Source: Microcystis aeruginosa NIES-843 (GTDB lineage: Bacteria; Cyanobacteriota; Cyanobacteriia; Cyanobacteriales; Microcystaceae). From it: DNA of 32,000 nucleotides. The notes under the pieces are model-generated. The model was not told the DNA's origin and did not search any database. It saw only the letters and a program-made list of their open reading frames with translations. Positions within the stretch are counted from its first letter, which is position 1. Each line of letters opens with the position of its first letter. The DNA is taken from the NCBI RefSeq assembly GCF_000010625.1, contig NC_010296.1:5670001-5702000 (forward strand). Reading direction: 5' to 3'. Both the position numbers and the translations under genes were made by a program. Below, piece after piece: positions 10,106-28,500 of this stretch.

Positions 10106-11815
10106 ATGAATTATCGCATTGATCGCCGCACCTATGCAGAAACCTACGGCCCCACCGTCGGAGATAAAGTTCGCCTCGCAGACACGGAATTATTTATCGA
10201 AGTCGAAAAAGATTTCACCACCTACGGCGATGAGGTAAAATTCGGCGGCGGTAAAGTAATTCGCGATGGGATGGGCCAATCCCCCATTTCTAGGGAAGAT
10301 GGGGCGGTAGATTTAGTGATTACTAATGCCTTAATTCTCGACTGGTGGGGCATCGTTAAAGCCGATGTGGGCATTAAAGACGGCAAAATTTATAAAATCG
10401 GTAAGGCGGGCAATCCCCACATTCAAGATAATGTCGATATTATTATCGGTCCTGCTACCGAGGCATTAGCTGGGGAAGGGATGATTTTGACAGCAGGGGG
10501 GATTGATGCCCATATTCATTTTATCTGTCCCCAACAAATTGAGACAGCGATTGCGTCGGGGATTACCACAATGATTGGTGGCGGGACCGGACCTGCAACG
10601 GGAACTAATGCCACCACCTGCACCCCGGGAGAATGGCACATCTATCGAATGCTAGAGGCGGCCGAAGCTTTCCCGATGAATTTGGGTTTTTTGGGTAAAG
10701 GCAATAGCAGTCAGCCGGAAGGACTAGCGGAACAGGTAAAAGCGGGGGTAATTGGCTTAAAACTCCATGAAGATTGGGGAACCACTCCGGCAGCCATTGA
10801 TACCTGTTTAAGCGTGGCCGATAAGTACGATGTGCAGGTGGCGATTCATACCGATACTCTCAATGAGGCCGGTTTTGTTGAGGCCACTATCGCCGCTTTT
10901 AAAAATCGCGTCATTCACACCTACCACACGGAAGGAGCCGGTGGTGGTCATGCTCCCGATATTATCAGGGTTTGCGGGGAAATGAACGTTTTACCCTCCT
11001 CTACCAATCCCACGCGTCCCTATACGACGAATACCTTAGAGGAACACCTCGATATGTTGATGGTTTGTCATCATTTAGACCGGAGTATTCCCGAAGATGT
11101 GGCTTTTGCTGAATCCCGCATCCGCCGCGAAACTATTGCCGCCGAGGATATTCTCCACGATTTAGGGGCTTTTAGTATAATTTCCTCCGATTCTCAAGCG
11201 ATGGGACGGGTGGGGGAAGTAATTATCCGCACTTGGCAAACTGCCCACAAAATGCGGGTACAACGGGGCAGACTGACCGGGGAAACGGGAGAGAATGATA
11301 ATCTGCGAGCAAGACGATATATTGCTAAATATACGATTAATCCTGCTATTACCCATGGTGTCTCCGATTATGTCGGTTCCATCGAGGTGGGCAAATTAGC
11401 CGATTTGGTTCTCTGGAAACCGGCATTTTTTGGCGTAAAACCGGAAATTGTCCTGAAAGGCGGTTTAATCGCCTGGGCGCAAATGGGCGATGCTAATGCC
11501 AGTATTCCCACACCCCAACCGGTTTATATGCGTCCCATGTTTGCCTCTTTTGGTGGTGCGATCGCCAAAACTTCCTTGACATTTGTTTCTAAATATGCTA
11601 TGAAAGCGGGCATTCCTGAGAAGTTAAAGCTGAAAAAAACCGCCGTGGCCGTGTCGAATACGCGCAATATCAGTAAGGCTAGTATGAAGCTTAATGACGC
11701 TTTACCGCGCATGGAAGTTAATCCCGAAACCTACGAGGTGCGTGCTGACGGGGAATTATTAATCTGTGAACCCGCTACGGTTTTACCCATGGCCCAACGC
11801 TATTTCCTATTTTGA
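10106..11815 (+). CDS. ureC: Urease alpha subunit
   Basis: [30 protein letters not shown]... with [18 protein letters not shown] and MVCHHLD motifs. The ATG at 10106 fits the conserved UreC N-terminus better than the track start at 10055. Confidence 0.95.
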
Positions 11816-14090: not shown

Positions 14091-14367
14091 CTACTGAGTA
14101 GACTGAATCATAGGCGGAATGTCGGTTTTAGCGTCGTTGGCGAGTTGGTTGGCGCGGGCGACGGGATCAAAACGGAGGCTAGGATTCCACTTTTGGGCGA
14201 TTTTAAAGCCTTCAATTGCTTCGTTGATTTTGCCTTCCCTAGCCAAGGCTTCGCTTTGTTTCATCAAAATACTCGCACCAGGCTGGGTGAGGTCAGCAGT
14301 TTGGCAGGTCGATAATTTAGCCAGCATTTGAGGATTGACAATCAAATAGTTTTTTAACCAATTACAG
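14091..14367 (-). pseudogene. C-terminal gene fragment (CNWLKNYLIVNP motif plus a TPR-like helix pair) abutting the IS1634-like element
   Basis: The first codons of the track ORF (MRVRNVG) are IS terminal-repeat sequence. The genuine part starts at about CNWLKNYLIVNPQMLAKLSTCQ...ALAREGKINEAIEGFKIAQKWNPSL. Confidence 0.5.
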
Positions 14368-16441
14368 CCCACATTCCGCACCCTCAACTGTCACATAAGC
14401 TGTCCCCCTCCAGAGACTTGAGTAAAAATACCTAGCTGGTGAAGGTTTTCTCGGTGGCCGCTAGGGGGGTCTTGAGACCCCTAATTATGAAAAAATAGGA
14501 ATTGTTGGAAAACTGAGGCGAGTGGACTGTTCGACCATGAATCAATCAACAGAAATTGAAGTCAAAAATCTAGACCATCTGGGATTAGTAGCCGGAATTA
14601 TCGATGAAATAGGAATCGTTGAAATTATCAACGAACAAGTCTCAATTGAGCGAGGAGAAATTGTCACAGCGGGGCAAGTCGTGAAAGCAATTATCCTGAA
14701 TGGATTGGGATTTGTCTCCCGAGCCTTGTATTTATTTCCTCAATTTTTTGAAGATAAAGCAACCGAACATCTGCTGGGAGAGGGCATCGAACCAAAACAC
14801 CTGAATGATGATAAAATTGGTCGAGTAATGGACAAACTTTATCAACTTAATGTTTCGGTCATTTTCCTACTGATTAGTTTAGCCGCCGTGAAAAAATTTG
14901 GTGTAGCAACCGAGAACTCCCATTTAGATTCGACTTCTCTATCAGTAGAAGGAGAATATAAAAAGGAATACCCAACAGTAGAAATCCTGAAATCAGGAGC
15001 AGTGGGAGAAGAAATTGAAACCGGACAACAGCCAATAAAAATTACCTACGGATACTCCCGCGACCGACGACCTGACTTAAAACAATTTATGATTGACTTA
15101 ATCGTAAGTGGGGATGGAGATGTACCTTTATTCCTGAAAGTAGGGGACGGAAATGAAGCGGACAAAGCGGTTTTTGGTCAAATCGCCCGAGAATTTAAAA
15201 AACAAGTTGACTTTGACAGTTTAATAGTCGGCGATAGCGCCCTCTATAGCAAAGAGAATTTAAAACTAATGAAAGAAATGCGTTGGTTGTCTCGAGTACC
15301 ATTAAGCATTAAAGAGGCTCAAGAGTTAGTCGATAGCATCTCAGAAAAAGAGTTAACCGATTCAGAAATACCGGGTTATTCCTGGCGGGAAACAAGCTCT
15401 AACTATGGGGGGATAGAACAAAGATGGTTGCTAGTTGAAAGTCAAGCTAGACAAGAATCAGACTTGAAAAAATTAGAGAAAAAAATCGAGCAGGAAAAGA
15501 ATTCTGCCCAAGAAAAAATCCGGCAACTATCCCGAAGAGAATTTGAGAATAGAGCGGTGGCGTTGGCGATAGCCAAAGGATTATCTGACTCCTTAAAATC
15601 TCATCAGTTAACGGAGATTAAAGTCAATCTCATTCCGCCTGAGTCCCAGGGGTCAAAACTCAAATCAAAAGACGATTTACCCTCTCAAAGCTATCAAGTT
15701 CAAGCCAAATTAGAGTTGAATTTGACCGCCATTGAGAGGCTAAAGAAACGAGCAGGACGATTCGTTTTAGCAACTAACGATTTGGAGAAAAAACGATTAA
15801 GCAGTGAGGATATACTCAAAAAATATAAAGGGCAACAAGCTCCGGAAAGAGGATTTTCTTTTCTCAAAGACCCCTGCTTTTTTGCCCACAGTGTCTTTCT
15901 CAAATCTCCCCATAGAATCGAGGTCATGGCCATGCTCATGGGCTTGTGCCTGCTGGTTTATACTATTGGTCAAAGACAACTTCGTTTAAGTTTAAAACAG
16001 CAGGAGACGGGACTGAAAAATCCGTTGGGTAAGTTAACTGACCGACCAACATTACGCTGGATATTTCAGAACTTTCAAGGGATTCATCTCCTACGTATTC
16101 AAGACAATCAAAAGATTAGCAACTTAACGGATGAGAGGCGCAACATTTTGAGATTTTTCCCCAAACCTTGCCAAGAATATTATCTCTTATCTTGACCAGA
16201 TGGATTGACTTCAAGGGGTGACAAAACAAAGCGAGCAACTGGAACATCTCCCCCTAGATGTTAAGTCTGATTGCCTAGTCATTCTCAACAAGCACTGTTT
16301 ATTGAGAATGACTGGGGGAACTCTGAAATTTTCGGCTTAGTTGCCGGCAGCTTGCCGCCAACTCACTCCTCTAGATAAGTATTTTGACTCGCGCCCCTTC
16401 CTCTTTTGAGACGTTGTGACACTTAGGGTGCGGAATGTGGG
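14368..16441 (+). mobile_element. IS1634-family (IS4-related) insertion sequence, about 2.07 kb
   Basis: Terminal inverted repeats are cccacattccgcaccct(caac)tgtcaca at 14368 and its complement ending at 16441. They enclose a 557-aa transposase. No target duplication is visible. Confidence 0.8.
14522..16195 (+). CDS. IS1634-family transposase
   Basis: The N-terminus is ...VKNLDHLGLVAGIIDEIGIVEIINEQV. Length is about 550 aa. GTG at 14522 or ATG at 14537 could be the start. Confidence 0.8.
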   Translation: MDCSTMNQSTEIEVKNLDHLGLVAGIIDEIGIVEIINEQVSIERGEIVTAGQVVKAIILNGLGFVSRALYLFPQFFEDKATEHLLGEGIEPKHLNDDKIGRVMDKLYQLNVSVIFLLISLAAVKKFGVATENSHLDSTSLSVEGEYKKEYPTVEILKSGAVGEEIETGQQPIKITYGYSRDRRPDLKQFMIDLIVSGDGDVPLFLKVGDGNEADKAVFGQIAREFKKQVDFDSLIVGDSALYSKENLKLMKEMRWLSRVPLSIKEAQELVDSISEKELTDSEIPGYSWRETSSNYGGIEQRWLLVESQARQESDLKKLEKKIEQEKNSAQEKIRQLSRREFENRAVALAIAKGLSDSLKSHQLTEIKVNLIPPESQGSKLKSKDDLPSQSYQVQAKLELNLTAIERLKKRAGRFVLATNDLEKKRLSSEDILKKYKGQQAPERGFSFLKDPCFFAHSVFLKSPHRIEVMAMLMGLCLLVYTIGQRQLRLSLKQQETGLKNPLGKLTDRPTLRWIFQNFQGIHLLRIQDNQKISNLTDERRNILRFFPKPCQEYYLLS

Positions 16442-18490
16442 TTGAAAGTTATTTGAGGCAACCTCACCCGATCGCTCTAACCGATTGACCGCAAGGATCG
16501 TTTCCTGTTCCTCCTGCGCCTGTTGCAACGCTATCTCTGCCTGTCGCGCCGCCCTTTCTGCCTTTTGCTGCTGGGCTGCAGCAAGTCGGAACTGCTGCTC
16601 TGCTGCCACCTTATCCCGTTCTGTGGCTGCCCTATCTCGGTTGACTTGAGCCAACTGCGCCGAGGCTACCAGTACCCGTTCCTGTGCTTGTAGGTATTGC
16701 TGCTGGGCCGATCGCGCTTGGTTTTGTGCCTGCTGGAACTTGCGATCGGCATCCTTTAGCTTTCCTCGCGCTACTGAGAGATTTTTCTGGGCTAATTTTT
16801 CCTTTCCCCTCGTCTGGCGCAAATTGCTATCTAAAATAATTTTGTCTTGCTGTAACTTCCTTTGGTCTGCTAATAATCTCAGTTTGTCGCCGTTCAGTTT
16901 TGTGATATTGGTTTGGGCAACCCTGAAATTATTCGTTGCCTTTATCGAAATAGGAACGGCAATAGCAGCAATGGCAATAGCTCCCAATGCCCCCAACAAA
17001 CTAAGCTTATTGCGTCGATTAGCTTTTTTGATGATTCTGCCGGATTCCTCCCTTGTTTCTAATAATGCTTGGTTCGCTGTTTCTAATTCTGTTTCCGCCT
17101 GTTCCCTCGCCGCAGTCAAAATCTGATTCGCTTCCGTTTCCGCCGCCAATCGCCTTTCCATATCCCGTTTTTCGACATCCTGGCTATCATCTAAAAAGCG
17201 TTCATCTTCTTTACTCAAGCGCTTTCCTTTTGCCCAAGTCTCCGCCTCCCGCAACGCCTGTCCCCGCAACAAAAACGACTCTTTCTGCTCTTCTTGTGCC
17301 TCCTGCCAAGCCTTAAACGCCTCCCCATAAAACCCCGGACGCAAATCCGCCAAAGCGCGAGCCACCCACTGCCCATTAAACACCTGCGCGTAGATGGGGT
17401 TATAGACTTTCAACCTGCCCTCTCGCTTCACCACCAAACCCGTCAGCCGCAGTTGCAGTTGCTCGTAGCTCTCATCGGCAATGATCCCCCCTTCCTTTCT
17501 GGATGAGAGAGGGGGGGGTTCAGCATCCAAAACTTGCTGATAAATCCCTAGCAGTCGCCCCCGTAGCCGTTCGTCACTGCGTAAAATCCTGTCTCGAATC
17601 GTTTTCAAATGCGGCGGCACGTCCTGCGCCTCCCAATTATCGATAAGCTGGCTCGTCACCACCTGCGCCACCAAATCTGGGGGCGATAGGCGCAAATCTG
17701 CCTCCTGCACTACCAAATTCAAGACCCGCTGCGTCAAAAACGGCTGTCCCCCCGTCCAATACAACACCGCTTGCAGCACCGCCTGCGGATCGTCCACCTT
17801 GCCCACCAAACCCTGCATCAACGGTTGAGCTTCCTGGAGTTGAAAGCCACTCATCTCCACCGCCCGACCGATATTAAACGCCGAACTACGCTTACTGACA
17901 ATCAGATCGGAAGGTGTTGCCACCCCTAAAAACGCAAAAGTCAGCCGCCGATAACGCAGATCTTCCGCCCGCCGCTCAAAGAAAGAGCGAATCAGAATGA
18001 AAAAACCATCGGTATCAAACTTGAGACTGAGCAGGTTATCAATTTCTTCGACAAAAATGACGACATCTTGCGAGAGTTCTGCCAGCAATACGCGATCGAT
18101 AAAATAAGTAAAGCGTTCGACCGCCGAAATCGACTGAGCCGCCAGATCCTTCCACCAACTCGAAAAATCGATTTTCTCTTGTAAATGCAAATCATCGATC
18201 AAGCGTTTTATGGTTCCGGCATACCACTGATCCTCGCTCAAACTGGTTCCCCGGGTTTGCGGGTCAATGACCGCACAAGCCACCCCCTCTGCCGCTAACT
18301 TCTGCATCACCCGCACCCGCAAACTAGACTTGCCCATCTGCCGCGAGTTAAAGACAAAACAATATTCTCCTGATTTCAGGCGATCGTACAATTCGCGATC
18401 GGCCTGTCGCTCTACATACCCACGATATTCGGCAGGTAAGCTCCCGCCTACTTGATAGCTAAAAGGAGTCGAGGAAGTTGGGTTTGTCAT
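16442..18490 (-). pseudogene. AAA-like (pfam14516-type) P-loop ATPase with a TM helix and long coiled coil; 3' end cut by the IS1634-like element
   Basis: [27 protein letters not shown]...[10 protein letters not shown] (Walker A) and VVIFVEEID (Walker B). [21 protein letters not shown] is followed by coiled coil, the TM helix [21 protein letters not shown], and a Q/A/R-rich coiled coil of about 200 aa. The track tail 16337-16441 is IS sequence. Confidence 0.7.
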
Positions 18491-18951
18491 CGAAAAATTG
18501 GGTCTGAAACCCCGCCCTTTAGCGATAGCGGAGGGCGGCTTTACATAAGTCAGTGAGAAACAATTAAACCGTTAGAACGACGAATTAACTGAATCTTGCT
18601 AACGGCTATCTGTCCCAATCGTTGACCATTGGCATCGCTTACAGATAACTGTTTTTCGGTATCTCCACTAACATAACCAATTCCTTTAGGAGAAGAAACT
18701 AAATCTCCTTTACGGAACCCATGTCTTCTGGTAAAGTTAAAGTCCCTTCCCGCAACACAATCAAGATGTCTTGTCTAACAACGCTTTACCAATAAAGCTT
18801 AGAGGGAATCCGAACTAGGGAAGTATTCGGAGGTCTGGGCCAGATTGTGTCTCGATGCGGTAGTCTCTACTTGCGTCGCCTAAATTGGTCTAGGCAAGCC
18901 CCGTCCCTTTTAGGGTGGGGTTAGTGACCTGATAAGCTTAGACGCACTTAC
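18491..18951 (-). mobile_element. Decayed copy (C2) of an IscB/RRXRR-like element with a 74-codon ORF relic and a structured 5' region
   Basis: The minus-strand relic at 18550..18774 has no start codon. It reads [74 protein letters not shown]. This resembles the (K)THxLDAxCVG ... GFxxGDxV ... RxxG C-terminal region of IscB-family proteins, from recall. Its ends match C1. Confidence 0.45.
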
Positions 18952-19022
18952 ATTGCACTTTAATATCCTGGAACGCCTTGTAGATAGGGATACGAGTAGG
19001 AAACTTAAATGCGTCTAAGCTT
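18934..19022. repeat. 13-bp perfect inverted repeat aagcttagacgca / tgcgtctaagctt separated by 63 nt
   Basis: Read directly at 18934-18946 and 19010-19022. It overlaps the presumed 5' boundary of C2. Confidence 0.7.
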
Positions 19023-19047
19023 ACCAAGTTGCTAAAAATATGTCCCA

Positions 19048-19078
19048 GAAAACGGATTTCTTTAAGAAACCCGTTTTC
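19048..19078. terminator. Variant of the gaaaacgg...ccgttttc hairpin family, downstream of xisI
   Basis: Stem gaaaacgg/ccgttttc with a 15-nt loop, located 8 nt beyond the xisI stop. Confidence 0.55.
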
Positions 19079-19085
19079 TAAGAGG

Positions 19086-19421
19086 TTAGGCGATCGCGTA
19101 GCCCGTGTAACCGCGTACATCCGCCGGATGAAAAGCGAGGACAATATCCTGCCGGGGAACACCCGCCGCCACTAGCTCATGGGTTACTCCGTCTTCGGTT
19201 TCATCTCGTTGTACCCAGATTTTCTCGTTGATAATATCCAAATGAATTAAACAGCCATGCACGCGAGTTTTGCGATCCCATCCGAGCGTCATCAAAAGAT
19301 AGCTATCTCGAACTTCATCAAAAATCGGCTTACAAATCAATTCGCCGTGAGAATAAGGGATTTCAGTATAAGGAATCAAAACCGATTTAATAATATGACG
19401 ATACTGATCTAATTTTTCCAT
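19086..19421 (-). CDS. xisI: XisI protein (fdxN-element excision controlling factor family)
   Basis: 111 aa. MEKLDQYRHIIKSVLIPYTEIPYS...KIWVQRDETEDGVTHELVAAGVPRQDIVLAFHP. It overlaps the xisH 3' end by 13 nt. Confidence 0.85.
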   Translation of the reverse strand: MEKLDQYRHIIKSVLIPYTEIPYSHGELICKPIFDEVRDSYLLMTLGWDRKTRVHGCLIHLDIINEKIWVQRDETEDGVTHELVAAGVPRQDIVLAFHPADVRGYTGYAIA

Positions 19422-19918
19422 TGCGAAATGACCTCCTTTTCAGCATCAAAAACAATAAACTTGAGATTTTCATCTTCGATTAAAATTTGTCCGATTGGCT
19501 CTTCAAAAAATGAATTATAAATCACATCTCTAATCGCCAAATATAGTTTATAATCAGGATAAGAACGACGCAAAACAGCCCGATAGATCGCAAACTGTCC
19601 AATCGCATCACGACAGGCTTGTAATTCTGATTCCCCCAGAAAGCTTTTAACTTCTACAGCAATTTTTTGCTCCAATCGCTCTGCTAATATTAGCTTTTTA
19701 GCCCCCAAATCGACGTACATATCTTTTCGCCCCCAACGGAGATGAAACGGATCGTGCGTGATCGTCCACCCATCTTTAATCAGGGCTTGCTTCGCAGCAT
19801 TATAGTCATTTCAATTAAGATTGAGAATATCAATGCCAGAGTTCATAAGGGTTTAACTGGTCTAGAGTGTATCAGACTTATCTGAAATGACTATATGATA
19901 CAGATCGAGAGCGGGCAT
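19409..19918 (-). pseudogene. xisH: xisH interrupted by a 91-bp MITE after codon 8
   Basis: MPALDLYH (19918-19895) is followed by the MITE, then NAAKQALIKDGWTITHDPFHLRWGRKDMYVDLGAKKL... Removing 19803-19893 and one TA restores a 138-aa in-frame XisH. Confidence 0.85.
19803..19893. mobile_element. 91-bp MITE with perfect 10-bp terminal inverted repeats (tagtcatttc / gaaatgacta) and a TA target duplication
   Basis: TA is present at 19801-19802 and at 19894-19895. TA targeting resembles IS630/Tc1-mariner-derived MITEs. Confidence 0.85.
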
Positions 19919-19979
19919 AATGGACTAAGTTAGCATAAACGACTAGATAAATAGACAATAGACTGTAAAGTGTTTTTAT

Positions 19980-21596
19980 TTAATTTCCTCCCAAGCGATC
20001 GCAAAAATCCTGACGATAAAGATCGCAGCGAGGTTTCACATTATTATCAACCCGCACCACTAATCCCATACTGTCCAGTTTAAACGACTCCTCAGACCGC
20101 AAACGTACCGGCGCTTCAGAAGTAATAACCAATTTCATGGCTGCCCCCAGTTCAGGATAATCTTCCAAAGTCTTCAAATGTCCCCGCAGATAATCGCTGT
20201 AAATTCCCGCTTCTGTGGGAGCCGTCCGCAAAAATTCCGCCAAAGAAAGATCCCCCGCTGCAATGTGATAGAGTGCCGAGCGCACCATGTAGGGATGCCC
20301 TCCAATTAACCCCATAAATTGTTCGAGTTCCCCCTCTGTCCAAGTTAATCCGTGCCGTGCTACCAACTCCTGTACCTGTTCAGGCGTAAACTCTCCCAAT
20401 TCGATGGGCAACCCCACATTAAAAGGCGATTGATTGATATCCCGTTGGGCATAGGACTCTTGAGAATGGACGATGATCAGCCGCAATTTCTGCCACAGTT
20501 TTTTAATCTTGGAACTTTCATGCCAGCCGCGCAATAATCCGCATAAATCCGTCTCGATATCTGCGTATTTAAAGATGCGATCAAAGTTATCGATCGCCAA
20601 CACCAACGGGCGATCGTCCCCCTCTAATAAATACTTCTCAAAATAATCCGTACTGTTATCGTTCGCTCCAAAAATATCATCCCAATACTCTTCAATCTTG
20701 ACCCTTACTCCTAGTGGTTTACCCACCGACGCACAAAACCACTGCATGAACTTGTCGAGATCGTCAAAGAACTTTTGATTGGTCTGTTCCAGATCGATCG
20801 TTACCGCACGATAGCCTAGTTGAGATGCTTGGGCAAGTACCTTCGCCATCAGGGACGATTTGCCCATATTGTGGGGCGATTTAATCCGAATCAGGGAGCC
20901 AGGCTTTTGAATTTCCTCATAGCACCGTTCTTCGTAAGGGGAAGTAATATAAAAGCGAGAGTCAATGCTAACTTGTCCTTCTGGAGATTCCAAGCTAATT
21001 TCCTGTTGTATCTTGTCTGGAGTAACTGTTGGCTTGAGGGGTTCCGATTGCGTTGGCATCTCAGTGGCTTTTGCGGATTGTTGAGGCTCTGGCAAGACAG
21101 TAGGCTGTTTATCAGTTAACACTGTCGCCATTTCCATTGCCGCGTGGCGAATCCCCTTAGCAATATTTAAAAACGCCTCACCCCGATTACTCCAAGTCGT
21201 CACAGGCTTGGCATTTTTTGGCAAAGCTTGCAACTTACCAAAAGGCGCACCACTCCAATCCACCGGCTTCAAAATAATCGGAATCACCCGCGCCTCCCCC
21301 GCATCATGCCGTGCAATCGCCCGTTCCATTTCAAGATCATAACAGTAGTCAGAAGCGATAAAGTTTTCACTAATCAACAACAGAATAATCTCGGCTGAAT
21401 TGAGATTTTCATCAATGGCTTGTTTCCACTCTGTTCCAGCACTAATTTTGCGATCGTGCCATGATTTAATCACTCCCTGTCTTTGTAATGACGCGAGGTG
21501 AAGTCCCAAAGTTTCCCGCAGTTTCTCATCCCGGTGAGAGTAAGAAATAAATACATCGAGCGGTGTGGATGATATGTCTGGATTAGGTAAAATCAT
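19980..21596 (-). CDS. TIR domain fused to an AAA-like (pfam14516-type) ATPase
   Basis: 538 aa. The N-terminal TIR reads DVFISYSHRDEKLRETLGLHL...ILLLISENFIASDYCYDLEMERAI. The ATPase part reads RFYITSPYEERCYEEIQKPGSLIRIKSPHNMGKSSL (Walker A), LVLAIDNFD (Walker B) and INQSPFNVGLPIELGEFTPEQVQELVARHGL. Confidence 0.8.
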   Translation of the reverse strand: MILPNPDISSTPLDVFISYSHRDEKLRETLGLHLASLQRQGVIKSWHDRKISAGTEWKQAIDENLNSAEIILLLISENFIASDYCYDLEMERAIARHDAGEARVIPIILKPVDWSGAPFGKLQALPKNAKPVTTWSNRGEAFLNIAKGIRHAAMEMATVLTDKQPTVLPEPQQSAKATEMPTQSEPLKPTVTPDKIQQEISLESPEGQVSIDSRFYITSPYEERCYEEIQKPGSLIRIKSPHNMGKSSLMAKVLAQASQLGYRAVTIDLEQTNQKFFDDLDKFMQWFCASVGKPLGVRVKIEEYWDDIFGANDNSTDYFEKYLLEGDDRPLVLAIDNFDRIFKYADIETDLCGLLRGWHESSKIKKLWQKLRLIIVHSQESYAQRDINQSPFNVGLPIELGEFTPEQVQELVARHGLTWTEGELEQFMGLIGGHPYMVRSALYHIAAGDLSLAEFLRTAPTEAGIYSDYLRGHLKTLEDYPELGAAMKLVITSEAPVRLRSEESFKLDSMGLVVRVDNNVKPRCDLYRQDFCDRLGGN

Positions 21597-21864: not shown

Positions 21865-22113
21865 ATGACCTTAAAACAATTAGACCGAATTACTTTTAAC
21901 TCCAAAATTATGGCAGGTCAAGCCTGTATTCGAGGAATGCGTATTCCTGTTTCTTTAATTCTTAATCTACTTGCTAACGAAAAGCCGATAGAGGAAATAT
22001 TAGAGGAATACCCTGACCTAGAAAGAGAAGATATTCACCAATGTTTATTATATGCTTCTTGGTTAGCCAGAGAACAAGTTCATTATTTTGAATTAATCGA
22101 GCAATGGAGATAG
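21865..22113 (+). CDS. DUF433 antitoxin-like protein
   Basis: 82 aa. SKIMAGQACIRGMRIPVSLILNLLANEKPIEEILEEYPDLEREDIHQCLLYA fits DUF433. Confidence 0.8.
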   Translation: MTLKQLDRITFNSKIMAGQACIRGMRIPVSLILNLLANEKPIEEILEEYPDLEREDIHQCLLYASWLAREQVHYFELIEQWR

Positions 22114-22472
22114 AGTTTCTAGCCGATATGGGGATTTATCTGCGTACAGTCTCATGGTTAAGAGAACAAGGTTATGATGTCGTTCATCTTCGATATGAAG
22201 GCTTACAAACTTTATCTGATCAGTAAATTCTTGCCAAAGCAAAAAGAGAAAAGCGGATAATTTTAACTGTCGATCTAGATTTTTCTCAACTTCTCGCTAT
22301 TAGTGGTGATAATTTACCAAGTGTCATCCTATTCCGTTTAGGCAATGAAAACTACAATCTAATTAATCAGCGTTTAACTATAGTTTTACGAGATTGTACA
22401 AAAGCATTAAAGACGGGAGCAATTGTGTCAGTAACAGATCGTATTTTTCGGATTAGACTTTTATCAATTTAA
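22104..22472 (+). pseudogene. DUF5615 (PIN-like, Mut7-C-like) toxin partner with an in-frame TAA at codon 41
   Basis: The ATG at 22104 overlaps the DUF433 stop. It reads MEIEFLADMGIYLRTVSWLREQGYDVVHLRYEGLQTLSDQ*ILAKAKREKRIILTVDLDFSQLLAISGDNLPSVILFRLG... The TAA is at 22224-22226. Confidence 0.75.
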
Positions 22473-22553
22473 GATTTTTGCTTTATAGCGTTCATGGAGT
22501 CTTCCCGTTAATTCCATCTTAAATATTGTGTTCCAAAAGCGAACACCTTTATT

Positions 22554-23772
22554 AGAACTCTTGCAAATTAATTATATGTTATAATGATGGGTTAACTAAT
22601 TTTCCCCAAAAAAATTAGTTAATCAGTACATTCGTCCTGAATGAAAACTTGAAGTTTAACTTTTAACTCAAAACTCTTTAGAGCTGCTTTAATTTGGTTA
22701 TCAAAACCTCTTTATTTAAGCGGCACAAACTATCTCAATTTTTATAATTGAGAATAAATTCTCCTTGACTTGATTAATCTTTAGGCAACTTTTAAGAAGC
22801 TGCTATACCTATCCCTAACTCACAGTTATAAATAGCCGCCAACAAGTTAACTCTTAAACTATATCTTCGACGACGATTCCGATATTTACAGGATAAGATT
22901 TTAAAGATTTTGAGTTTCCTATTTATATGTTCAATGATAATCCTTTCTTTGGCTAAAGCCTTGTTATACTCTTTTTCTAACTCTGTTAATTTTCTATTTT
23001 TCGATTTCTTTTTCGGTGTATAACTATTACTATGGTATGCAGCTATTCCCTGATAACCACTGTCTTCTATGCTGGTAGTTAAAGGATGAAAACGAACTCG
23101 ACTTTTTTTAAATAAACTAAAATCATGACCTCTACCTTTCCCACAAAAGACACAGATAATTTCCTCGGTATTTTGATCAGCTACTAATTGGGATTTTAAA
23201 GTATGATAACCTCTTTTACCCCCCAAAAAATCTTTCTGTTTCTTTTTGGGGCGTTCAATGGGAGTTTCCGTTACATCCATTACCGTTACGACCGGTATCT
23301 CTGCTTGATTTAGTAGAGCTTTTTTTCCTTTTAAACGGAAGTTTCCCGATTGTAAAAGCATTTTTTCCGTCTTATTTACAATCCGACATATAGTTGATTC
23401 TGATAGTTCCCAGCTTGTACCAATGTGAAAATATGTTCTATATTCTCGCCAATATTCTAACGTTACTAAAACTTGTTCTTCTATAGATAGTTTAGGTTTC
23501 GGTCCCCTTTTAGATGGTGAATTAGAGTCGGCTTCAACACTTTTTACTGATTCTACCATCTTTCTATAGGTTTGTTTATACACACCGAAACGGCGTTTGA
23601 ATTGTTCATCTGATAAGTTTTGATAATCCATAATTTTGCTAATAAACATAGCAAAATTATAGATGATTTCCTGACCTAAGATCACATTTTATTCTTTTTT
23701 CCACTTCAATCTAAGAATTGAGAAAAAAGCAAAACCTTATATTATACCATAAAAAAATTATGCAAGAGGTCT
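22554..23772 (-). mobile_element. IS5-superfamily (DDE_Tnp_4 / Harbinger-like) insertion sequence, about 1.2 kb
   Basis: Imperfect terminal repeats are agaactcttgcaaa... at the left end and agacctcttgcata... (complement) at the right end. ATT flanks both ends and may be a 3-bp duplication. Confidence 0.65.
22792..23631 (-). CDS. DDE_Tnp_4-type transposase
   Basis: MDYQNLSDEQFKRRFGVYKQTYRKMVE (HTH), then VTVMDVTETPIERP, GRGHDFSLFK and ERIIIEHINRKLKIFKIL. The ATG at 23629-23631 is preferred over the longer track start. Confidence 0.75.
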   Translation of the reverse strand: MDYQNLSDEQFKRRFGVYKQTYRKMVESVKSVEADSNSPSKRGPKPKLSIEEQVLVTLEYWREYRTYFHIGTSWELSESTICRIVNKTEKMLLQSGNFRLKGKKALLNQAEIPVVTVMDVTETPIERPKKKQKDFLGGKRGYHTLKSQLVADQNTEEIICVFCGKGRGHDFSLFKKSRVRFHPLTTSIEDSGYQGIAAYHSNSYTPKKKSKNRKLTELEKEYNKALAKERIIIEHINRKLKIFKILSCKYRNRRRRYSLRVNLLAAIYNCELGIGIAAS

Positions 23773-23782: not shown

Positions 23783-23842
23783 ACAAATTATAACATTGGC
23801 AAATAATCTCCCTGTCCTCTGTGTCTCTGTGGTTAATTACAC
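23783..23842. repeat. Direct repeat copy 1 (aaattataacat..aataatctc..tgtgtctctgtggttaatta)
   Basis: About 50 of 60 nt match 24590-24649, including a perfect 20-mer. Confidence 0.8.
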
Positions 23843-24162
23843 TTCGTTTCTGAATAGTCACCAATAATTATAGGTTCTTTGTTGGGAATTTTGACAATAA
23901 TTTCGACAGTTCCACCTAATGCGTTAACTACTTCGCGCAGTGTATTTAGCTCTAGATTTTGCTCTTGTTTAAGTTTAGGTACTATTGATTGCTGTACTTC
24001 AAGATGCTCTGCCAATTCTGATAAAGATAAACCTAGTTTTTCCTGCAAATACTTAAGCGTAAGTTCCTCCAGATAAATTTGGGAAGCTCTTGCTTTAATA
24101 ATTGCTTGTCGTTCTCCACAAAGTTTATTAAATTCTTCCGAGAAGTTGGTATATTCTTTCAT
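23833..24162 (-). CDS. HTH (XRE-type) antitoxin, HigA-like
   Basis: 109 aa. The HTH is LQEKLGLSLSELAEHLEVQQSIVPKLK. A 4-nt overlap links it to the upstream toxin gene. Confidence 0.7.
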   Translation of the reverse strand: MKEYTNFSEEFNKLCGERQAIIKARASQIYLEELTLKYLQEKLGLSLSELAEHLEVQQSIVPKLKQEQNLELNTLREVVNALGGTVEIIVKIPNKEPIIIGDYSETKCN

Positions 24163-24515
24163 GACTTTTCTTCCTTAAGTTTTTCCAGATATTTTTGATA
24201 ACGTTGATCTGCTATAGGAATATTTTCTTTGTACCATCTTTTGTTACCTGACTTGTTCCCCCCAACAAGTAAAATTGCTTGTCGATGAGGATCAAAGGCA
24301 AATAAAACACGCCAAGGTTCACCTTTATACTGAATACGAAGCTCTTTCATATTCTTAAAAGAAGATCCTTCAATGGTATCAACTCGTGGTCTCCCCAGTG
24401 CTGGTCTAAGTTTCATCAATACAGTTAAAACAGCAAATATTTCATTTTGAAGTCCCTGTTCTTGTTGATAAAACCAGAACCTAAAATCTGGATCAAATAT
24501 AATATTCTATTCCAT
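24159..24515 (-). pseudogene. RelE/ParE-superfamily (Gp49/HigB-like) toxin with TAG as codon 3
   Basis: ME*NIIFDPDFRFWFYQQEQGLQNEIFAVLTVLMKLRPALGRPRVDTIEGSSFKNMKELRIQYKGEPWRVLFAFDPHRQAILLVGGNK... The TAG is at 24507-24509. The track lists only the TTG-initiated distal 86 aa. Confidence 0.65.
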
Positions 24516-25807: not shown

Positions 25808-26512
25808 TCACTTCAATTTTTTCCTCGCTTCATATAACCATTGTTCTTCCTCTGTATTAATTATCCTCCCTTCGGCTAAATTAAGACATTTACGCCAATT
25901 TTCCTGAGATAATTTCTTATCTTCTTTTTCTAAAAGTTGAGCATAAATACAAAAAGCAGCACCGGGATTGCGGATAAATTTCTGATAAGCTGGATTTTCA
26001 GCGATACCAATAGCAACTAAAAGATTAGGAACTGCATCTTCACTGCGATTTTGCTTAAATCTGGCCCAGCCTAGATTTTTATAAATACTATATTTTTGTA
26101 CTGCTAAATTGCGTTTCTCATCTTCAGTAAATTGGTCTAGTTTTTCATCTTTTTCTGCTAATAATCTCTTAGCTTTTTCCAGTAACTCTACCGCTTCTGC
26201 ATTCTTATTATCTCGCAGATACCAATAAGCGAGATTATTATAAGCATCTATAAAACCACCTTTTGCCGCAATTAAATAGTGTTTCTTCCCATTAGTCAAA
26301 TCCTGTAACTCTTCGTAAAGTGTTGCCAACTTATAATGAGCATCTAGATTATCTGGATCTAACTCAATTGCTTTTAAATACTTCTCTTCGGCTGAAGCTA
26401 AATTAGGAAATTCTTGACTTGCTGGCGGAGGAGATTGTAAACGGCTTCCTGCTTGCTTATAAAACTCAGAAAACCAAGAGAAATTTAGATAAATTCCCAA
26501 GAGAAAAGCAAA
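25808..26512 (-). pseudogene. Distal (TPR-repeat) half of a TM-TPR gene split by the IS1380-like element
   Basis: It has TPR-like helices (AEEKYLKAIELDPDNLDAHYKLATLYEEL; AYNNLAYWYLRDNKNAEAVELLEKA). The frame joins 28501..29071 exactly once the IS and one CAAA copy are removed. Confidence 0.8.
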
Positions 26513-28500
26513 CCCGCATTTCTCACAAAAAGTACGATCACCAACCCCCGAAGCCTTACAAAATCTGGGTTTTGACTGGGTGATCGCCTTGTAGCAAAAA
26601 CGACAGTGTGTTGTTAGGATTCAACTTAAGCTCATCATCAATTAGACCTTGAAAAAAGAACAAATTTAAAATGCGTATTTTTAGGTTAATTAGTTGATAA
26701 AGTCTCAATTTTAAGTAGAGAATGAAGTCAAAAGCTTGCTATAATTTAATCATTAAAACTATTTAAAGTATGTCAAGTTTATGACTCCTAGTTCAGACCA
26801 GTCTCGACTCAATCAATTAAATTTTGGAAACCTCAATGGAAGACAAGTAATCGCTAATTTTGAGGGAGGAAAAATCACCTCAGATGCAGGAATTATTTTG
26901 ATGGCAGAGTTAGACCAAAAGCTAAAAATAACGGCTCGGTTTGCCGAATGTTTTCGAGATTATCGAAATTCATCCTATCTAGATTATTCAGTTCATGAAC
27001 TACTCGCACAAAGAGTTTATGGGATAGTTTTGGGATATGAGGATGTCAATGATCATGATAAATTACGTCATGCTCCAGCTTTAGCAATAGCATTGAAAAA
27101 ACTAAATTTTATTGACTCAGCCCAAGCAAATTTAGCGGGAAAAAGTACAATTAATCGACTAGAATATTGTCCGGAAACAGTCATCAATCAAGAGAACAGT
27201 CGTTACCATAAAATCGAGCCTAACCCCAAAGAAATTGAAAAAGCTTTTGTGGACATCTTTCTAGAATCCTACAAAAAGCCACCGAAACCAATTATTTTAG
27301 ACATGGATGTCACCGATGACCAAGTGCATGGAAATCAAGAGGGAGCGTTTTTCAATACTTATTATAAAGGAGTGTGTTATGCTCCTTTGTATATTTTCTG
27401 TGAGCATCATTTATTAGTAGCTAAACTCCGGTCTTCTCATGTAGATACTGCTGGGGGAGCATTAGAAGAATTGCAGCGAATAATCGGTATAATTCGAGAA
27501 AAATGGTCAGATACGCAGATATTAGTACGAGGAGATAGTGCCTATTCCCGTGAAGATATCATGAAATTTTGCGAAAGTCAAGCAGGAGTTGATTATGTTT
27601 TAGCAATGGCAACGAATAGTCAATTAAAATTACGAGCGACCGATGTAATTGAGAAAGCTAAGGCAGATTACGAGCAAAGACTTCAGCCAGTTACTGAATT
27701 AATGGAGACGTTATTTTCTCCCGATGAAGAGTTAGGAGAATTGGCGAAATTGGTACCAGAATCGACTTGGTATCGTTCCCTATGTTATCAAACCCAAAAA
27801 TCCTGGAGCCGTTCAAGAAGAGTGGTGACAAAAGTTTGTCCTGGTAGTGAGGGCGTAAAAATTCGCCACGTTGTGACTTCTTTACCTGCATCAAAGATTC
27901 CCCCATCTAAACTTTACACTGAAAAATATTGCCCCAGAGGTGAGAGGTCAAATCGAATTAAAGAGCAACAATTAGACTTATTTGCTGACCGGAATTCGAC
28001 ACAGACATTTGAGAGTAATCAATTAAGACTTTGGTTGTCATCAATGGCTTATGTTTTAATGCAAGCTTTTCGTCAAAATTGTTTGGCTAAAACTTCTTTT
28101 GCCAAAGCGACAGTGGGAACAATTCGCCTTAATTTCCTTAAATTAGGAGCTAGAATTACTGTTAGTGTCAGAAGAATTTTAATCGCAATTGCCAGTTCTT
28201 GTCCCTATCAAGATATTTTAGCGATAGCTTACTCTAGAATTCAAGCGATAGCGGGAACTGGATAAGTTGAAGAGTTTTCAAAGATCATTAAATAGTCTTA
28301 AAAATGGCTGCTTATAAATTCAGCTAACTTTGTCGTGAACATTTTCCCTAATTGACGGAATTTTTCCAGTAATTCAGGAATTTTTTGATTAGTTTAGTCA
28401 GATTATTCCTTGATAACTAAGCGGGTTTCTCTTATTTTTGAAAAACACCAACTTTTAACCTCCAAATTAGGTTCTTAATTCAGTTTGTGAGAAATGCGGG
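26513..28500 (+). mobile_element. IS1380-family insertion sequence, 1988 bp, with a 4-bp target duplication
   Basis: 17-bp perfect terminal inverted repeats are cccgcatttctcacaaa (26513-) and tttgtgagaaatgcggg (-28500). CAAA is present at 26509-26512 and 28501-28504. Confidence 0.9.
26781..28265 (+). CDS. IS1380-family transposase
   Basis: 494 aa. FEGGKITSDAGIILMAELDQKLKI...LLAQRVYGIVLGYEDVNDHDKLRHAP and IKEQQLDLFADRNSTQTFESNQLRLWLSSMAYVL are typical of IS1380 transposases. Confidence 0.85.
   Translation: MTPSSDQSRLNQLNFGNLNGRQVIANFEGGKITSDAGIILMAELDQKLKITARFAECFRDYRNSSYLDYSVHELLAQRVYGIVLGYEDVNDHDKLRHAPALAIALKKLNFIDSAQANLAGKSTINRLEYCPETVINQENSRYHKIEPNPKEIEKAFVDIFLESYKKPPKPIILDMDVTDDQVHGNQEGAFFNTYYKGVCYAPLYIFCEHHLLVAKLRSSHVDTAGGALEELQRIIGIIREKWSDTQILVRGDSAYSREDIMKFCESQAGVDYVLAMATNSQLKLRATDVIEKAKADYEQRLQPVTELMETLFSPDEELGELAKLVPESTWYRSLCYQTQKSWSRSRRVVTKVCPGSEGVKIRHVVTSLPASKIPPSKLYTEKYCPRGERSNRIKEQQLDLFADRNSTQTFESNQLRLWLSSMAYVLMQAFRQNCLAKTSFAKATVGTIRLNFLKLGARITVSVRRILIAIASSCPYQDILAIAYSRIQAIAGTG

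What the first reader, a model, noticed from the sequence alone, without database searches (positions are those of the whole stretch)
16442..21596. Candidate conflict system: TIR-AAA ATPase, xisHI, and AAA/TM/coiled-coil ATPase on one strand
Two paralogous AAA-like (pfam14516-type) P-loop modules lie 1.5 kb apart in the same orientation.

The upstream one carries an N-terminal TIR domain, which in bacteria is typically an NADase or signal-generating immune effector. The downstream one instead has a TM helix and a coiled coil of about 200 aa. Between them is an xisH (endonuclease-fold) / xisI pair.

A soluble TIR-ATPase sensor-effector paired with a membrane-tethered paralogue is not a system I can name. 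Every downstream component has been hit by mobile DNA (the MITE, the IscB-like relic at the ATPase start, and the IS1634-like element). That is what would be expected of a costly defence locus under decay. The TIR gene itself is intact.
Basis: partly seen in the sequence, partly recalled or inferred. Interest (0 to 1): 0.7.

Follow-up and report, generated by a model that had tools for sequence, protein, structure and literature searches.

The report
Split NLR-like ATPase pair, broken copy
This Microcystis locus is a transposon-damaged copy of a two-gene cassette found in nearly all sampled cyanobacteria: a soluble TIR-bearing STAND-like ATPase next to a membrane-spanning paralogue with an outward-facing repeat sensor. 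The cassette looks like an immune receptor split into an effector half and a sensor half, and xisH/xisI between the genes is a passenger.

Summary
On the minus strand lie a TIR + AAA_35 gene (19980-21596), xisH/xisI (19086-19917) and a second AAA_35 gene with coiled coils and a TM helix (16442-18490).

- The two ATPases are true paralogues (hhalign 99.7 %).
- They form a conserved cassette. In 78 of 80 informative loci from many cyanobacterial genera, an "A" gene is directly followed by a "B" gene.
- The A gene is a variable N-terminal effector (TIR, CHAT, kinase, EAD, cyclase or HTH) plus AAA_35.
- The B gene is AAA_35, one TM helix and a variable C-terminal module (mostly WD40 or TPR).
- Both ATPases fold like STAND/ORC-Cdc6 modules.
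- Hydropathy, charge bias and domain content put the B sensor outside the cytoplasm.
- xisHI sits between A and B only in one sub-clade. Other loci carry other small nuclease genes there, so it is cargo, not core.

In this strain B is a stump. An IS1634 replaced the roughly 670 aa that hold the WD40 array in the M. aeruginosa KW allele. A 91-bp MITE splits xisH, and a HEARO/IscB relic separates xisI from B.

Best model: ligand-bound B nucleates A, which switches on TIR NAD+ cleavage. This model is inferred, not shown.

I found no named system that matches. The closest concept is the nSTAND2 two-gene operon.

The parts
19980..21596 (-). A gene: TIR (aa ~13-160), disordered linker (aa 164-201), then an AAA_35 module of nucleotide-binding, helical and winged-helix domains (aa 205-536). 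Intact. Walker A is GKS. Walker B is AIDNFD, so the catalytic Glu is replaced by Asn.
   Evidence: Pfam. The PADLOC ThsB-type TIR model matches the TIR only. AF2 model pLDDT 81; Foldseek finds RPP1 TNL, PAB2304, Avs3/4 and ORC/Cdc6. Motif statistics. E89 conservation.
19803..19893 (.). 91-bp MITE inside xisH, between codons 8 and 9. It has 11-bp perfect terminal inverted repeats and a TA target duplication (IS630/mariner style).
   Evidence: Absent from L001 and L007. Inverted repeats. Sequence.
19409..19917 (-). xisH, a PD-(D/E)XK-fold protein, disrupted by the MITE. The intact allele is 138 aa.
   Evidence: Pfam XisH 3.1e-34 over profile positions 36-133. Intact sequence from L001. PDB 2inb and 2okf. 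PD-(D/E)XK classification from PMC3424549.
19086..19421 (-). xisI, intact, 111 aa. It overlaps the xisH stop.
   Evidence: Pfam XisI 1.3e-41. PDB 3d7q and 2nwv.
19043..19083 (-). Terminator-like hairpin (19-bp stem, T run) just after xisI. It is part of the sequence shared with intact alleles.
   Evidence: It lies inside the 99.9 % identical block 19022-19803.
18492..19021 (-). 530-bp insertion between xisI and the B start codon. It is a relic of a HEARO/omega-RNA (IscB-type) element with no intact ORF.
   Evidence: Absent from L001 and L007, where the spacer is 69 bp. Rfam RF02033 at 18736-18928, 36 bits, E 2.3e-5, model positions 1-211 of 211, below the gathering score of 83.
16442..18490 (-). 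B gene, native part (aa 1-683): AAA_35 nucleotide-binding, helical and winged-helix module (aa ~14-373); a conserved extension carrying the 'LLRGxAL..A..WA.GK.LS..D..FL' motif (to aa ~440); a cytoplasmic long helix (aa 427-501); one TM helix (aa ~505-527); then a post-TM coiled coil. It is cut at 16442 by the IS.
   Evidence: Pfam. AF2 model pLDDT 84.6; Foldseek finds SSO1545, ORC2/Cdc6, RuvB, RPP1 and Avs5. TM evidence. Uninterrupted relatives P0122 and P0123. 99 % nucleotide identity to other strains only up to 16938, just past the TM helix.
14368..16441 (+). IS1634-family insertion sequence (transposase 14522-16195). It replaces about 2 kb of B's WD40 array. No target-site duplication is visible.
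   Evidence: NF033559, 401 bits. DUF4277 + DDE. Inverted repeats CCCACATTCCGCACCCT.
14091..14367 (-). Orphaned C-terminal cap of the B gene (GCNWLKNYL...C...EALAREGKINEAIEGFK...). It corresponds to aa ~1345-1420 of the intact WD40 allele.
   Evidence: Protein comparison with L007. blastn 14255-13900 against L007 16609-16942. Two-Cys cap motif.

Best explanation
The locus is a strain-specific, inactivated copy of a conserved cyanobacterial two-gene cassette built from two paralogous STAND-like (Pfam AAA_35) ATPases.

- Gene A carries a swappable N-terminal output domain, here a TIR that is a predicted NAD+-cleaving domain. It has no sensor.
- Gene B carries no output domain. After its ATPase module it has one TM helix and a swappable, strain-variable C-terminal module (WD40 in the ancestor of this allele). 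That module is predicted to lie outside the cytoplasm.

Proposed mechanism (inferred):
1. B is a membrane-spanning receptor.
2. Ligand binding or envelope perturbation at its periplasmic module is relayed through the TM helix and coiled coils to its hydrolysis-competent ATPase.
3. The activated B module nucleates co-oligomerisation with the soluble A paralogue through the homologous ATPase modules. This parallels NAIP-NLRC4 and plant sensor-helper NLRs.
4. Clustering of the TIR domains switches on NAD+ hydrolysis. The outcome is growth arrest or death, for example as abortive infection.

xisH/xisI is a small mobile module of the kind seen in toxin-antitoxin pairs. It settled in the A-B spacer of one sub-clade and is not required for the system.

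In this window the sensor half is destroyed by IS1634 plus loss of the WD40 array. xisH is split by a MITE, and a HEARO/IscB relic separates B from upstream transcription. Only the TIR-A gene is intact, and the system is most likely non-functional.
For: Shown:
- A and B are paralogous over the whole nucleotide-binding, helical and winged-helix module.
- B follows A on the same strand in 78 of 84 A genes. Four of the six exceptions end within 100 nt of a contig edge. 58 of the 78 gaps are <=150 nt.
- Three of three look-ups anchored on B find A directly upstream.
- A and B co-diverge: r = 0.917 over 70 loci, against a permutation maximum of 0.09.
- Single-chain A-B (P0272) and B-A (P0354) fusions exist.
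- The N-termini of A are typical conflict-system outputs: TIR 26+11, CHAT 14, Pkinase 14, EAD4/EAD1 4, cyclase 2, sigma70_r4/HTH 6.
- The same AAA backbone at 80-90 % identity carries CHAT instead of TIR.
- B C-termini are WD40 in 34 of 50, the rest TPR, TPR+CHAT and others.
- Fold: the A model hits plant TNL RPP1, PAB2304, Avs3/4, ORC/Cdc6 and Dark. The B model hits SSO1545, ORC/Cdc6, RPP1 and Avs5.
- Topology: 59 of 65 B proteins have exactly one hydrophobic segment after the ATPase. K+R counts are 4.3 on the N side and 2.4 on the C side, with N>C in 49 and N<C in 3.
- Topology, continued: homologues with GH24 lysozyme, PG_binding_1, beta-lactamase or COP23 C-termini have the TM helix. Those with PP2C or Macro have none.
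- WD40-type tails often contain only two Cys, both in a conserved C-terminal cap.
- ATPase asymmetry: B has Walker A and [DE]-E in 79 of 79. A has Walker A in 83 of 83, but the catalytic Glu is Asn in 38 of 83, including this window.
- TIR: E89 is >=90 % conserved and aligns with the Glu of the Cat1 'WCWD-ELEQA' motif.
- xisHI as passenger.
- Damage in this strain.
- Allelic hypervariability starts exactly after the TM helix.
Against: - No experiment or expression data are available.
- Hetero-oligomerisation is inferred from paralogy, adjacency, co-divergence and rare fusions. None of these proves contact, and co-divergence is also expected from shared descent.
- A defence role is inferred from domain content only. 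PADLOC v2 has no model for either ATPase, and no cassette was found on viral contigs.
- Kinase, cyclase and HTH/sigma outputs fit ordinary envelope signalling equally well.
- WD40, TPR and CHAT domains are usually cytoplasmic, so a periplasmic location is unusual. AF2 gives the TM segment low confidence.
- Foldseek TM-scores are moderate (0.4-0.6). The best single-domain matches are archaeal PF01637 ATPases and ORC/Cdc6 rather than classic NACHT or NB-ARC.
- xisHI stays with the cassette across genera while the effector changes, so an accessory role is not excluded.
Confidence: 0.55

Rival explanations
1. The A+B pair is a general transmembrane signalling device, not an immune or cell-death system. 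B senses an envelope or extracellular cue and A converts it into phosphorylation, cNMP synthesis, transcription or NAD+-derived signalling. The TIR version is just one output.
For: A outputs include Ser/Thr kinase (14), sigma70_r4/HTH (6) and cyclase (2). STAND proteins such as MalT and AfsR are regulators (established knowledge). B C-termini include PG_binding_1, lysozyme and beta-lactamase-like modules that could monitor the cell wall. No cassette was found on phage contigs, and PADLOC has no model for the ATPases.
Against: TIR, CHAT and EAD outputs make up more than half of A proteins and are hallmarks of conflict systems (PMC7159879). Effectors are swapped on near-identical backbones. The sensor is hypervariable between conspecific strains. 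The cassette sits among toxin-antitoxin modules and IS elements in a variable island. It is frequently pseudogenised.
Confidence: 0.25
2. xisH/xisI is an integral third and fourth component. XisH would be a nuclease effector and XisI its inhibitor, controlled by the two ATPases.
For: In Microcystis the four genes are tightly packed (62- and 69-bp gaps, xisH and xisI overlapping). The A-xisH-xisI-B order persists in Pseudanabaena spp. and a Coleofasciculaceae MAG even though the A effector differs: kinase, cyclase or TIR. XisH has a PD-(D/E)XK nuclease fold.
Against: xisHI is absent from about 72 of 78 non-Microcystis cassettes, many with A and B separated by 2-4 bp. The same spacer holds unrelated small genes elsewhere: Uma2, HNH, HSDR_N-like, 23S-IVS and a secreted 198-aa protein. 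xisH is truncated to 118 aa, or split, in several Microcystis strains in which the neighbouring genes persist. A terminator-like hairpin follows xisI. Other xisI copies lie nearby.
Confidence: 0.1
3. A and B act independently. B is a self-contained receptor and A is a free-standing TIR-STAND whose partner or ligand is elsewhere. Adjacency would reflect tandem duplication and co-inheritance only.
For: Tandem arrays such as A-B-B and B-B(-B) fusions show that the family expands by local duplication. Some B alleles carry their own CHAT protease, so they could act alone.
Against: The architecture is complementary: A never has a sensor, B has no N-terminal output, and only one B allele type examined (L001/L003) carries an enzyme domain, a C-terminal CHAT. 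The A-then-B order is strict in 78 of 80 loci and start/stop codons often overlap. The ATPase motifs are conserved asymmetrically. A-B fusions exist.
Confidence: 0.1

Closest known systems
nSTAND2 mobile two-gene operon (Kaur, Iyer, Burroughs & Aravind 2021, eLife; PMC8195603, section 15)
   Same: Two adjacent genes each encode a paralogous STAND-type NTPase. One carries variable effector modules. The authors predicted a hetero-multimeric ring and a counter-invader role.
   Different: In nSTAND2 the effector-bearing partner has eroded NTP-binding motifs and mostly carries GT4 or HEPN. Here both partners keep Walker A; only the catalytic Glu of A is lost, in 46 % of cases. Outputs are TIR, CHAT, kinase or EAD. 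The partner is a single-pass membrane protein with WD40/TPR. Pfam matches AAA_35, not any nSTAND model.
Paired or networked NLRs: NAIP-NLRC4 in animals, sensor-helper and TIR-NLR (RPP1, ROQ1) in plants
   Same: The A model aligns over TIR plus nucleotide-binding domain with the RPP1 resistosome (E 2e-11). Labour is divided between a ligand-binding NLR and an effector-bearing NLR that co-oligomerise (established knowledge). A-B-B arrays resemble several sensors feeding one effector.
   Different: Homology is at the AAA+/STAND fold level only (12-15 % identity). A has no repeat domain at all. The B sensor is predicted to be extracytoplasmic, unlike the cytosolic NLRs.
Bacterial STAND defence proteins (Avs1-7, bNACHT) and Thoeris ThsB
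   Same: Domain logic of effector, NTPase and repeat sensor, with Foldseek matches to Avs3, Avs4 and Avs5. The TIR matches a PADLOC ThsB model at 3.9e-61.
   Different: Avs and bNACHT are single polypeptides and cytosolic. No PADLOC model matches either ATPase. No ThsA (SIR2/SLOG or Macro) partner is present in the window.
XisH/XisI (fdxN-element excision factors of Anabaena PCC 7120)
   Same: Clear family membership by Pfam and by PDB relatives 2okf/2inb and 2nvm/3d7q.
   Different: None of the ORFs of 90 aa or more scanned across the window has a recombinase domain, so there is no XisF-type serine recombinase or excisable element. Here the pair behaves as a small mobile two-gene module.
Archaeal PF01637 'Arch_ATPase' (PAB2304 2qen, SSO1545 2fna) and ORC/Cdc6
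   Same: Best single-domain structural matches for both A and B, with TM-score normalised to the target 0.55-0.61. A has a weak Pfam ATPase_2 hit.
   Different: These proteins lack effector, TM and repeat fusions and do not occur as paired paralogues. Sequence identity is 13-15 %.

Membership tests
Pfam AAA_35 (PF14516) | Match to the family HMM above the gathering score | tested here: met
   A: 435.7 bits, full length. B: 82.8 bits over profile positions 4-258 of 331. Cut-off is 27.
STAND NTPase superfamily | P-loop nucleotide-binding domain followed by a helical domain and a winged-helix domain | tested here: met
   AF2 models show a beta-alpha nucleotide-binding domain, a helical bundle and a C-terminal beta-hairpin winged helix. 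Foldseek finds RPP1, Avs3/4/5, Dark, ORC/Cdc6 and PF01637 ATPases.
STAND NTPase superfamily | Specific STAND sequence signatures (for example a GxP motif in the helical domain) and placement inside the STAND clade rather than ORC/Cdc6-like AAA+ | tested here: inconclusive
   GxP-like GGHPY (A) and GGQPF (B) align with each other. However, the top single-domain structural hits are PF01637 and ORC/Cdc6, and no phylogeny was made.
STAND NTPase superfamily | Fusion to effector and repeat (WD40/TPR) modules | tested here: met
   Effectors are on A and WD40/TPR on B, so they are split over two genes.
STAND NTPase superfamily | Nucleotide-dependent oligomerisation | not testable with these tools
   Needs biochemistry or cryo-EM.
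nSTAND2 two-gene operon (PMC8195603) | Two adjacent paralogous STAND genes | tested here: met
nSTAND2 two-gene operon (PMC8195603) | One partner has eroded NTP-binding motifs and carries GT4/HEPN effectors | tested here: not met
   Walker A GK[ST] is present in 83 of 83 A and 79 of 79 B. Only the A Walker-B Glu changes to Asn, in 38 of 83. No GT4 or HEPN was seen among 54+26 A N-termini.
Enzymatically active TIR (NADase or signal-generating) | TIR fold with the conserved catalytic Glu after the 'WC' motif on helix alpha-C | tested here: met
   TIR_2 and TIR Pfam hits. E89 is >=90 % conserved in 26 homologues and aligns with the Cat1 Glu. It lies on helix 83-98 of the model.
Enzymatically active TIR (NADase or signal-generating) | NAD+ cleavage activity | not testable with these tools
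   Needs an enzyme assay.
Thoeris | ThsB-type TIR together with a ThsA (SIR2/SLOG or Macro) effector gene | tested here: not met
   The TIR matches the ThsB model, but no ThsA-like gene is among the window ORFs.
XisH / XisI | Matches to PF08814 and PF08869 in an adjacent, overlapping gene pair | tested here: met
   xisH is interrupted in this window.
XisH / XisI as excision factors | Association with an XisF-type recombinase and an excisable element | tested here: not met
   No recombinase domain in any ORF of 90 aa or more scanned across the window.
IscB/HEARO element | HEARO (omega) RNA next to an IscB ORF | tested here: inconclusive
   The RNA match is full length but reaches 36 bits against a gathering score of 83. 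There is no IscB ORF, and the 38-aa remnant has no Pfam hit.
IS1634 family | IS1634 transposase with terminal inverted repeats | tested here: met
   NF033559, 401 bits against a cut-off of 100. 17-23-nt inverted repeats.

The most novel reading that the evidence does not exclude
The AAA_35 A/B cassette would be a previously unnamed, very large family of split, membrane-spanning NLR-like receptors. At E<=1e-30 there are 5194 B-type cluster representatives at 50 % identity.

In this reading a bitopic sensor paralogue reads a periplasmic or cell-surface cue, such as phage attachment or ejection, cell-wall damage or non-kin contact, through hypervariable WD40/TPR modules. It then recruits a cytosolic effector paralogue (TIR, caspase-like CHAT, kinase or other) by hetero-oligomerisation. 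This would be a bacterial counterpart of sensor-helper NLR pairs that senses outside the cytoplasm.
Probability: 0.35. Interest if true: 0.85.

Novelty: new variant of a known kind. Interest (0 to 1): 0.62.

Why it matters
If the model holds, cyanobacteria would carry an abundant class of NLR-like receptors in which sensing and execution are divided between two paralogous ATPases. The sensor would face the periplasm. All characterised bacterial STAND defences (Avs, bNACHT) and eukaryotic NLRs sense inside the cytosol.

This would give a simple, genetically separable model of sensor-helper NLR activation. It would also offer a candidate mechanism for detecting phage or neighbours before genome entry.

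It could help explain strain-level differences in phage susceptibility and programmed cell death in bloom-forming Microcystis. There the sensor half is hypervariable and often knocked out by IS elements.

For annotation, 'AAA-like domain-containing protein' pairs could be recognised as one unit, and xisHI between them treated as cargo.

Tried and rejected
- Literature: a search for PF14516 gave 0 papers, and AAA_35 gave only unrelated hits. Kaur et al. 2020 (iSTAND, EACC1) and 2021 (nSTAND1/2), Doré et al. 2024 and the 2026 STAND survey do not describe this pair. PMC7685563 is not held.
- iSTAND membership: rejected. There are no MoxR or vWA neighbours and the P-loops are intact.
- Thoeris: rejected because there is no ThsA.
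- Chance adjacency in a defence island: rejected by the 78-of-80 linkage.
- Sequence search of the PDB with the A profile found only TIR domains and a RecA P-loop fragment, so structure prediction was needed.
- Pfam on the IscB-like peptide remnant: no hit.
- IMG/VR scan: only TIR-domain relatives and no AAA_35 cassette.
- Promoter and terminator scan: fewer sites than in shuffles, so it is uninformative about operon structure apart from the hairpin after xisI.
- A first MITE pattern search with a fixed spacer length failed. The search for the inverted repeats alone succeeded.
- Two family-search calls failed because of an off-by-one error in my coordinates and were repeated.

Full report
**Origin and layout**

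The window is Microcystis DNA. The TIR-AAA_35 protein is 100 % identical to myaer102_33600 of M. viridis NIES-102.

Housekeeping genes flank a variable island. Aconitase B, PPK2 and ureC lie on one side; tRNA-Arg, MoaC and CobN lie on the other.

The finding lies in this island on the minus strand:

| Element | Coordinates | Notes |
|---|---|---|
| A gene | 19980-21596 | TIR_2 + full AAA_35 |
| xisH | 19409-19917 | interrupted |
| xisI | 19086-19421 | intact |
| B gene | 16337-18490 | AAA_35 + helices + hydrophobic segment |
| IS1634-family element | 14368-16441 | plus strand |

**Checking the observation**

- The two ATPase modules are paralogues over their whole length. hhalign gives probability 99.7 %, E 4.6e-26 and 317 aligned columns, with A 205-533 matching B 14-373.
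- Comparison with other Microcystis genomes (L001 to L012) shows what the intact locus looks like. It is a tight same-strand cluster.
  - A (538 aa), then a 62-bp gap, then xisH (138 aa) overlapping xisI (111 aa).
  - Then a 69-bp gap, then a B protein of 1420 aa or 1438 aa.
  - The 1420-aa form is AAA_35, coiled coil, TM, coiled coil, about 14 WD40 repeats and a C-terminal cap.
  - The 1438-aa form is the same N-terminal half followed by five TPR_12 units and a CHAT protease.

Against this reference the window has three lesions inside the locus:

1. A 91-bp MITE at 19803-19893 between xisH codons 8 and 9. It has perfect 11-bp terminal repeats and a TA duplication.
2. A 530-bp insertion at 18492-19021 between xisI and B. 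It holds a full-length but sub-threshold HEARO RNA match, the RNA partner of IscB-type HNH elements (36 bits, E 2e-5).
3. The IS1634 element. It abuts B after codon 683 ('…ASNNFQ'). Relatives P0122 and P0123 continue there with native sequence. On its other side lies only the last ~75 codons of B, as ORF 14091-14387.

Relative to the intact WD40 allele of M. aeruginosa KW (L007), about 670 aa that hold the WD40 array there are missing. There is no target duplication. The 717-aa 'AAA/TM/coiled-coil ATPase' is therefore a stump, not an architecture.

**Is the pairing real?**

I scanned one genome per species with a profile of TIR-A homologues. This gave 80 loci from Pseudanabaena, Leptolyngbya, Cyanobium, Synechococcus, Crocosphaera, Acaryochloris, Nostocales, Oscillatoriales and others. 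I annotated them with my own HMMs for TIR, A-type AAA_35, B-type AAA_35, XisH and XisI.

- Of 84 A-type genes, 78 are followed on the same strand by a B-type gene.
- Four of the six exceptions end less than 100 nt before a contig edge.
- In 58 cases the gap is 150 nt or less, often with overlapping stop and start. Leptolyngbya O-77, Cyanobium FGCU-6 and a MAG have 2-3-nt gaps.
- Three look-ups anchored on B proteins all found an A gene directly upstream.
- Pairwise identities of A modules and of their partner B modules correlate at r = 0.917 over 70 loci. The maximum over 500 permutations was 0.09.
- Some loci are A-B-B.
- The representative library contains A-B and B-A single-chain fusions as well as B-B(-B) fusions.
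- The B family is large: 5194 cluster representatives at E<=1e-30.

**What the parts are**

The N-termini of A are swappable outputs:

| Output domain | Count |
|---|---|
| TIR | 26 by my HMM, plus 11 divergent TIR_2 |
| CHAT | 14 |
| Ser/Thr kinase | 14 |
| sigma70_r4/HTH | 6 |
| EAD4 | 3 |
| cyclase | 2 |
| EAD1 | 1 |

The AAA module closest to the window's (73-77 % identity) carries CHAT, kinase or cyclase rather than TIR. CHAT-AAA_35 proteins share 80-90 % identity with the window's ATPase part. Effectors are therefore exchanged on a conserved backbone.

B proteins have no N-terminal output. Their C-termini are WD40 in 34 of 50, otherwise TPR, TPR+CHAT and others. Homologues also carry GH24 lysozyme, PG_binding_1, class-A beta-lactamase, COP23, PP2C or Macro.

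AF2 models of A (pLDDT 81) and of B residues 1-535 (pLDDT 84.6) show a nucleotide-binding domain, a helical domain and a winged helix.

- Foldseek matches A to the plant TIR-NLR RPP1 across TIR plus nucleotide-binding domain (E 2e-11). It also matches the PF01637 ATPase PAB2304, Avs3/4, ORC/Cdc6 and Dark.
- Foldseek matches B to SSO1545, ORC2/Cdc6, RuvB, RPP1 and Avs5.

I call the module STAND-like. Exact clade placement is open.

**Topology of B**

Four independent lines of evidence favour a real single-pass helix with the N-terminus inside and the C-terminus outside.

1. 59 of 65 B proteins have exactly one strongly hydrophobic 19-mer. It lies 10-60 aa after the ATPase module, even though its sequence is not conserved.
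2. K+R counts average 4.3 on the N side and 2.4 on the C side. N exceeds C in 49 proteins and the reverse holds in 3.
3. Homologues whose C-terminal domain is typically extracytoplasmic have the helix: lysozyme, peptidoglycan-binding, beta-lactamase and COP23. The two with typically cytoplasmic domains, PP2C and Macro, lack it.
4. WD40-type tails end in a conserved 'GC.WL..YL…C' cap. The median total Cys count in the ~750-aa tail is two. This fits a disulfide in an oxidising compartment.

In Microcystis, nucleotide identity between strains is 99 % up to just past the helix (window 16938). It vanishes beyond that point. The outward-facing part is therefore the hypervariable part.

**ATPase asymmetry and TIR**

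- B keeps RQMGKSS and [DE]-E in 79 of 79 sequences.
- A keeps GK[ST] and the Walker-B Asp in 83 of 83. The catalytic Glu is Asn in 38 of 83, including the window's AIDNFD.
- B therefore looks always hydrolysis-competent, whereas A is often a binder only.
- The TIR has the near-invariant E89 in 'CYDLEME'. It aligns with the Glu of the NADase Cat1.
- No ThsA-like partner is present, so direct NAD+ depletion is the simplest output. This is inference.

**xisH/xisI**

Membership in the family is clear. Outside Microcystis the pair lies between A and B in only six loci: four Pseudanabaena or Pseudanabaenales, one Coleofasciculaceae MAG and one probably mis-binned MAG. All belong to the sub-clade closest to the window, and their effectors differ (kinase, cyclase).

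Elsewhere the spacer is empty or holds other small genes. These are Uma2 plus HNH, an HSDR_N-like PD-(D/E)XK protein, a 23S-IVS four-helix protein and a secreted 198-aa protein.

xisH is truncated or split in several Microcystis strains while xisI persists. I read xisHI as mobile cargo of the kind seen in toxin-antitoxin pairs, at about 75 % confidence. An accessory role is not excluded.

**Mechanism proposed (inferred)**

1. B is a membrane receptor.
2. A signal at its outer module activates its ATPase.
3. The activated B nucleates the soluble A paralogue through the homologous modules. This parallels NAIP-NLRC4 or plant sensor-helper NLRs.
4. Clustered TIR domains cleave NAD+.

What is shown: paralogy, strict linkage and gene order, complementary architectures, co-divergence, rare fusions, fold, topology indicators and motif asymmetry. 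What is not shown: contact between A and B, enzymatic activity, the trigger and any phenotype.

**State in this strain**

The system is most likely dead. The sensor is lost, and B is separated from upstream genes by the HEARO relic.

The idea that the locus decays because it is costly is not tested. The same island has three more IS insertions in unrelated genes: IS5 at 22555-23771, IS1380 at 26513-28499 and IS630 at 29064-30146. It also has a nonsense mutation in a neighbouring PIN-like toxin gene. Other strains keep intact alleles.

**Comparison with known systems**

The closest described concept is the nSTAND2 two-gene operon of paralogous STAND NTPases (PMC8195603). Its defining detail is an effector-bearing partner with eroded NTP-binding motifs, carrying GT4 or HEPN. 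That is not met here.

PADLOC v2 has no model for either ATPase. No paper in the searchable library mentions PF14516.

I rate the cassette a new variant of a known kind (STAND/NLR-like conflict systems). The extracytoplasmic sensor and the split into sensor and effector genes are its distinctive features.

Noticed in passing
window 10261-10547 (-): An Rfam 5_ureB_sRNA match (118 bits) lies antisense inside the urease alpha-subunit gene (10055-11815 +). It probably reflects conservation of the coding sequence rather than a cyanobacterial sRNA.
   Followed up: no
window 21865-22475 (+): A toxin-antitoxin-like DUF433 / DUF5615 (PIN-like) pair lies next to the A gene. DUF433 is intact, but the DUF5615 partner has an in-frame stop at codon 41. 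It is intact (122 aa) in other strains.
   Followed up: partly
window 22555-23771, 26513-28499, 29064-30146: Three further IS insertions are absent from other strains: IS5, IS1380 and IS630 families. The last two split a single TPR gene, whose remnants are at 25808-26500 and 28475-29071.
   Followed up: partly
window 23833-24419 (-): A Gp49 (HigB-like) / HTH_37 gene pair, another toxin-antitoxin-type module in the same island.
   Followed up: no
window 19043-19083 (-): A 19-bp-stem hairpin followed by a T run lies directly after xisI and is conserved in intact alleles. It may terminate or attenuate transcription before the B gene in cassettes that carry xisHI.
   Followed up: no
proteins P0241-P0251, P0272, P0354, P0244-P0246: The representative library holds single chains with two or three B modules, and A-B and B-A fusions. 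It also holds B proteins followed by 2-5 repeats of only the helical + winged-helix half of the module.
   Followed up: partly
L016 9329-9844 (Cyanobium sp. FGCU-6): A SLATT_1/DUF4231 membrane protein gene lies divergently just upstream of the TIR-A/B cassette. SLATT domains are known partners of TIR and nucleotide signalling.
   Followed up: no
window 14091-14387 (-) and the C-termini of WD40-type B proteins in L007, L039, L044, L048, L082 and others: A conserved C-terminal cap 'GC.WL..YL…C' is present. Its two cysteines are often the only ones in the ~750-aa tail, which suggests a disulfide.
   Followed up: partly
window ~5000-9000: A low-GC stretch (0.32-0.37, against about 0.45 on either side) contains ORFs without Pfam matches (5377-6207, 7478-8443). 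It may be another acquired segment.
   Followed up: no
L054-L059 (Laspinema/Oscillatoria), A-B spacer: A conserved 198-aa protein with an N-terminal signal-like segment and no Pfam match is encoded between A and B in this clade.
   Followed up: no
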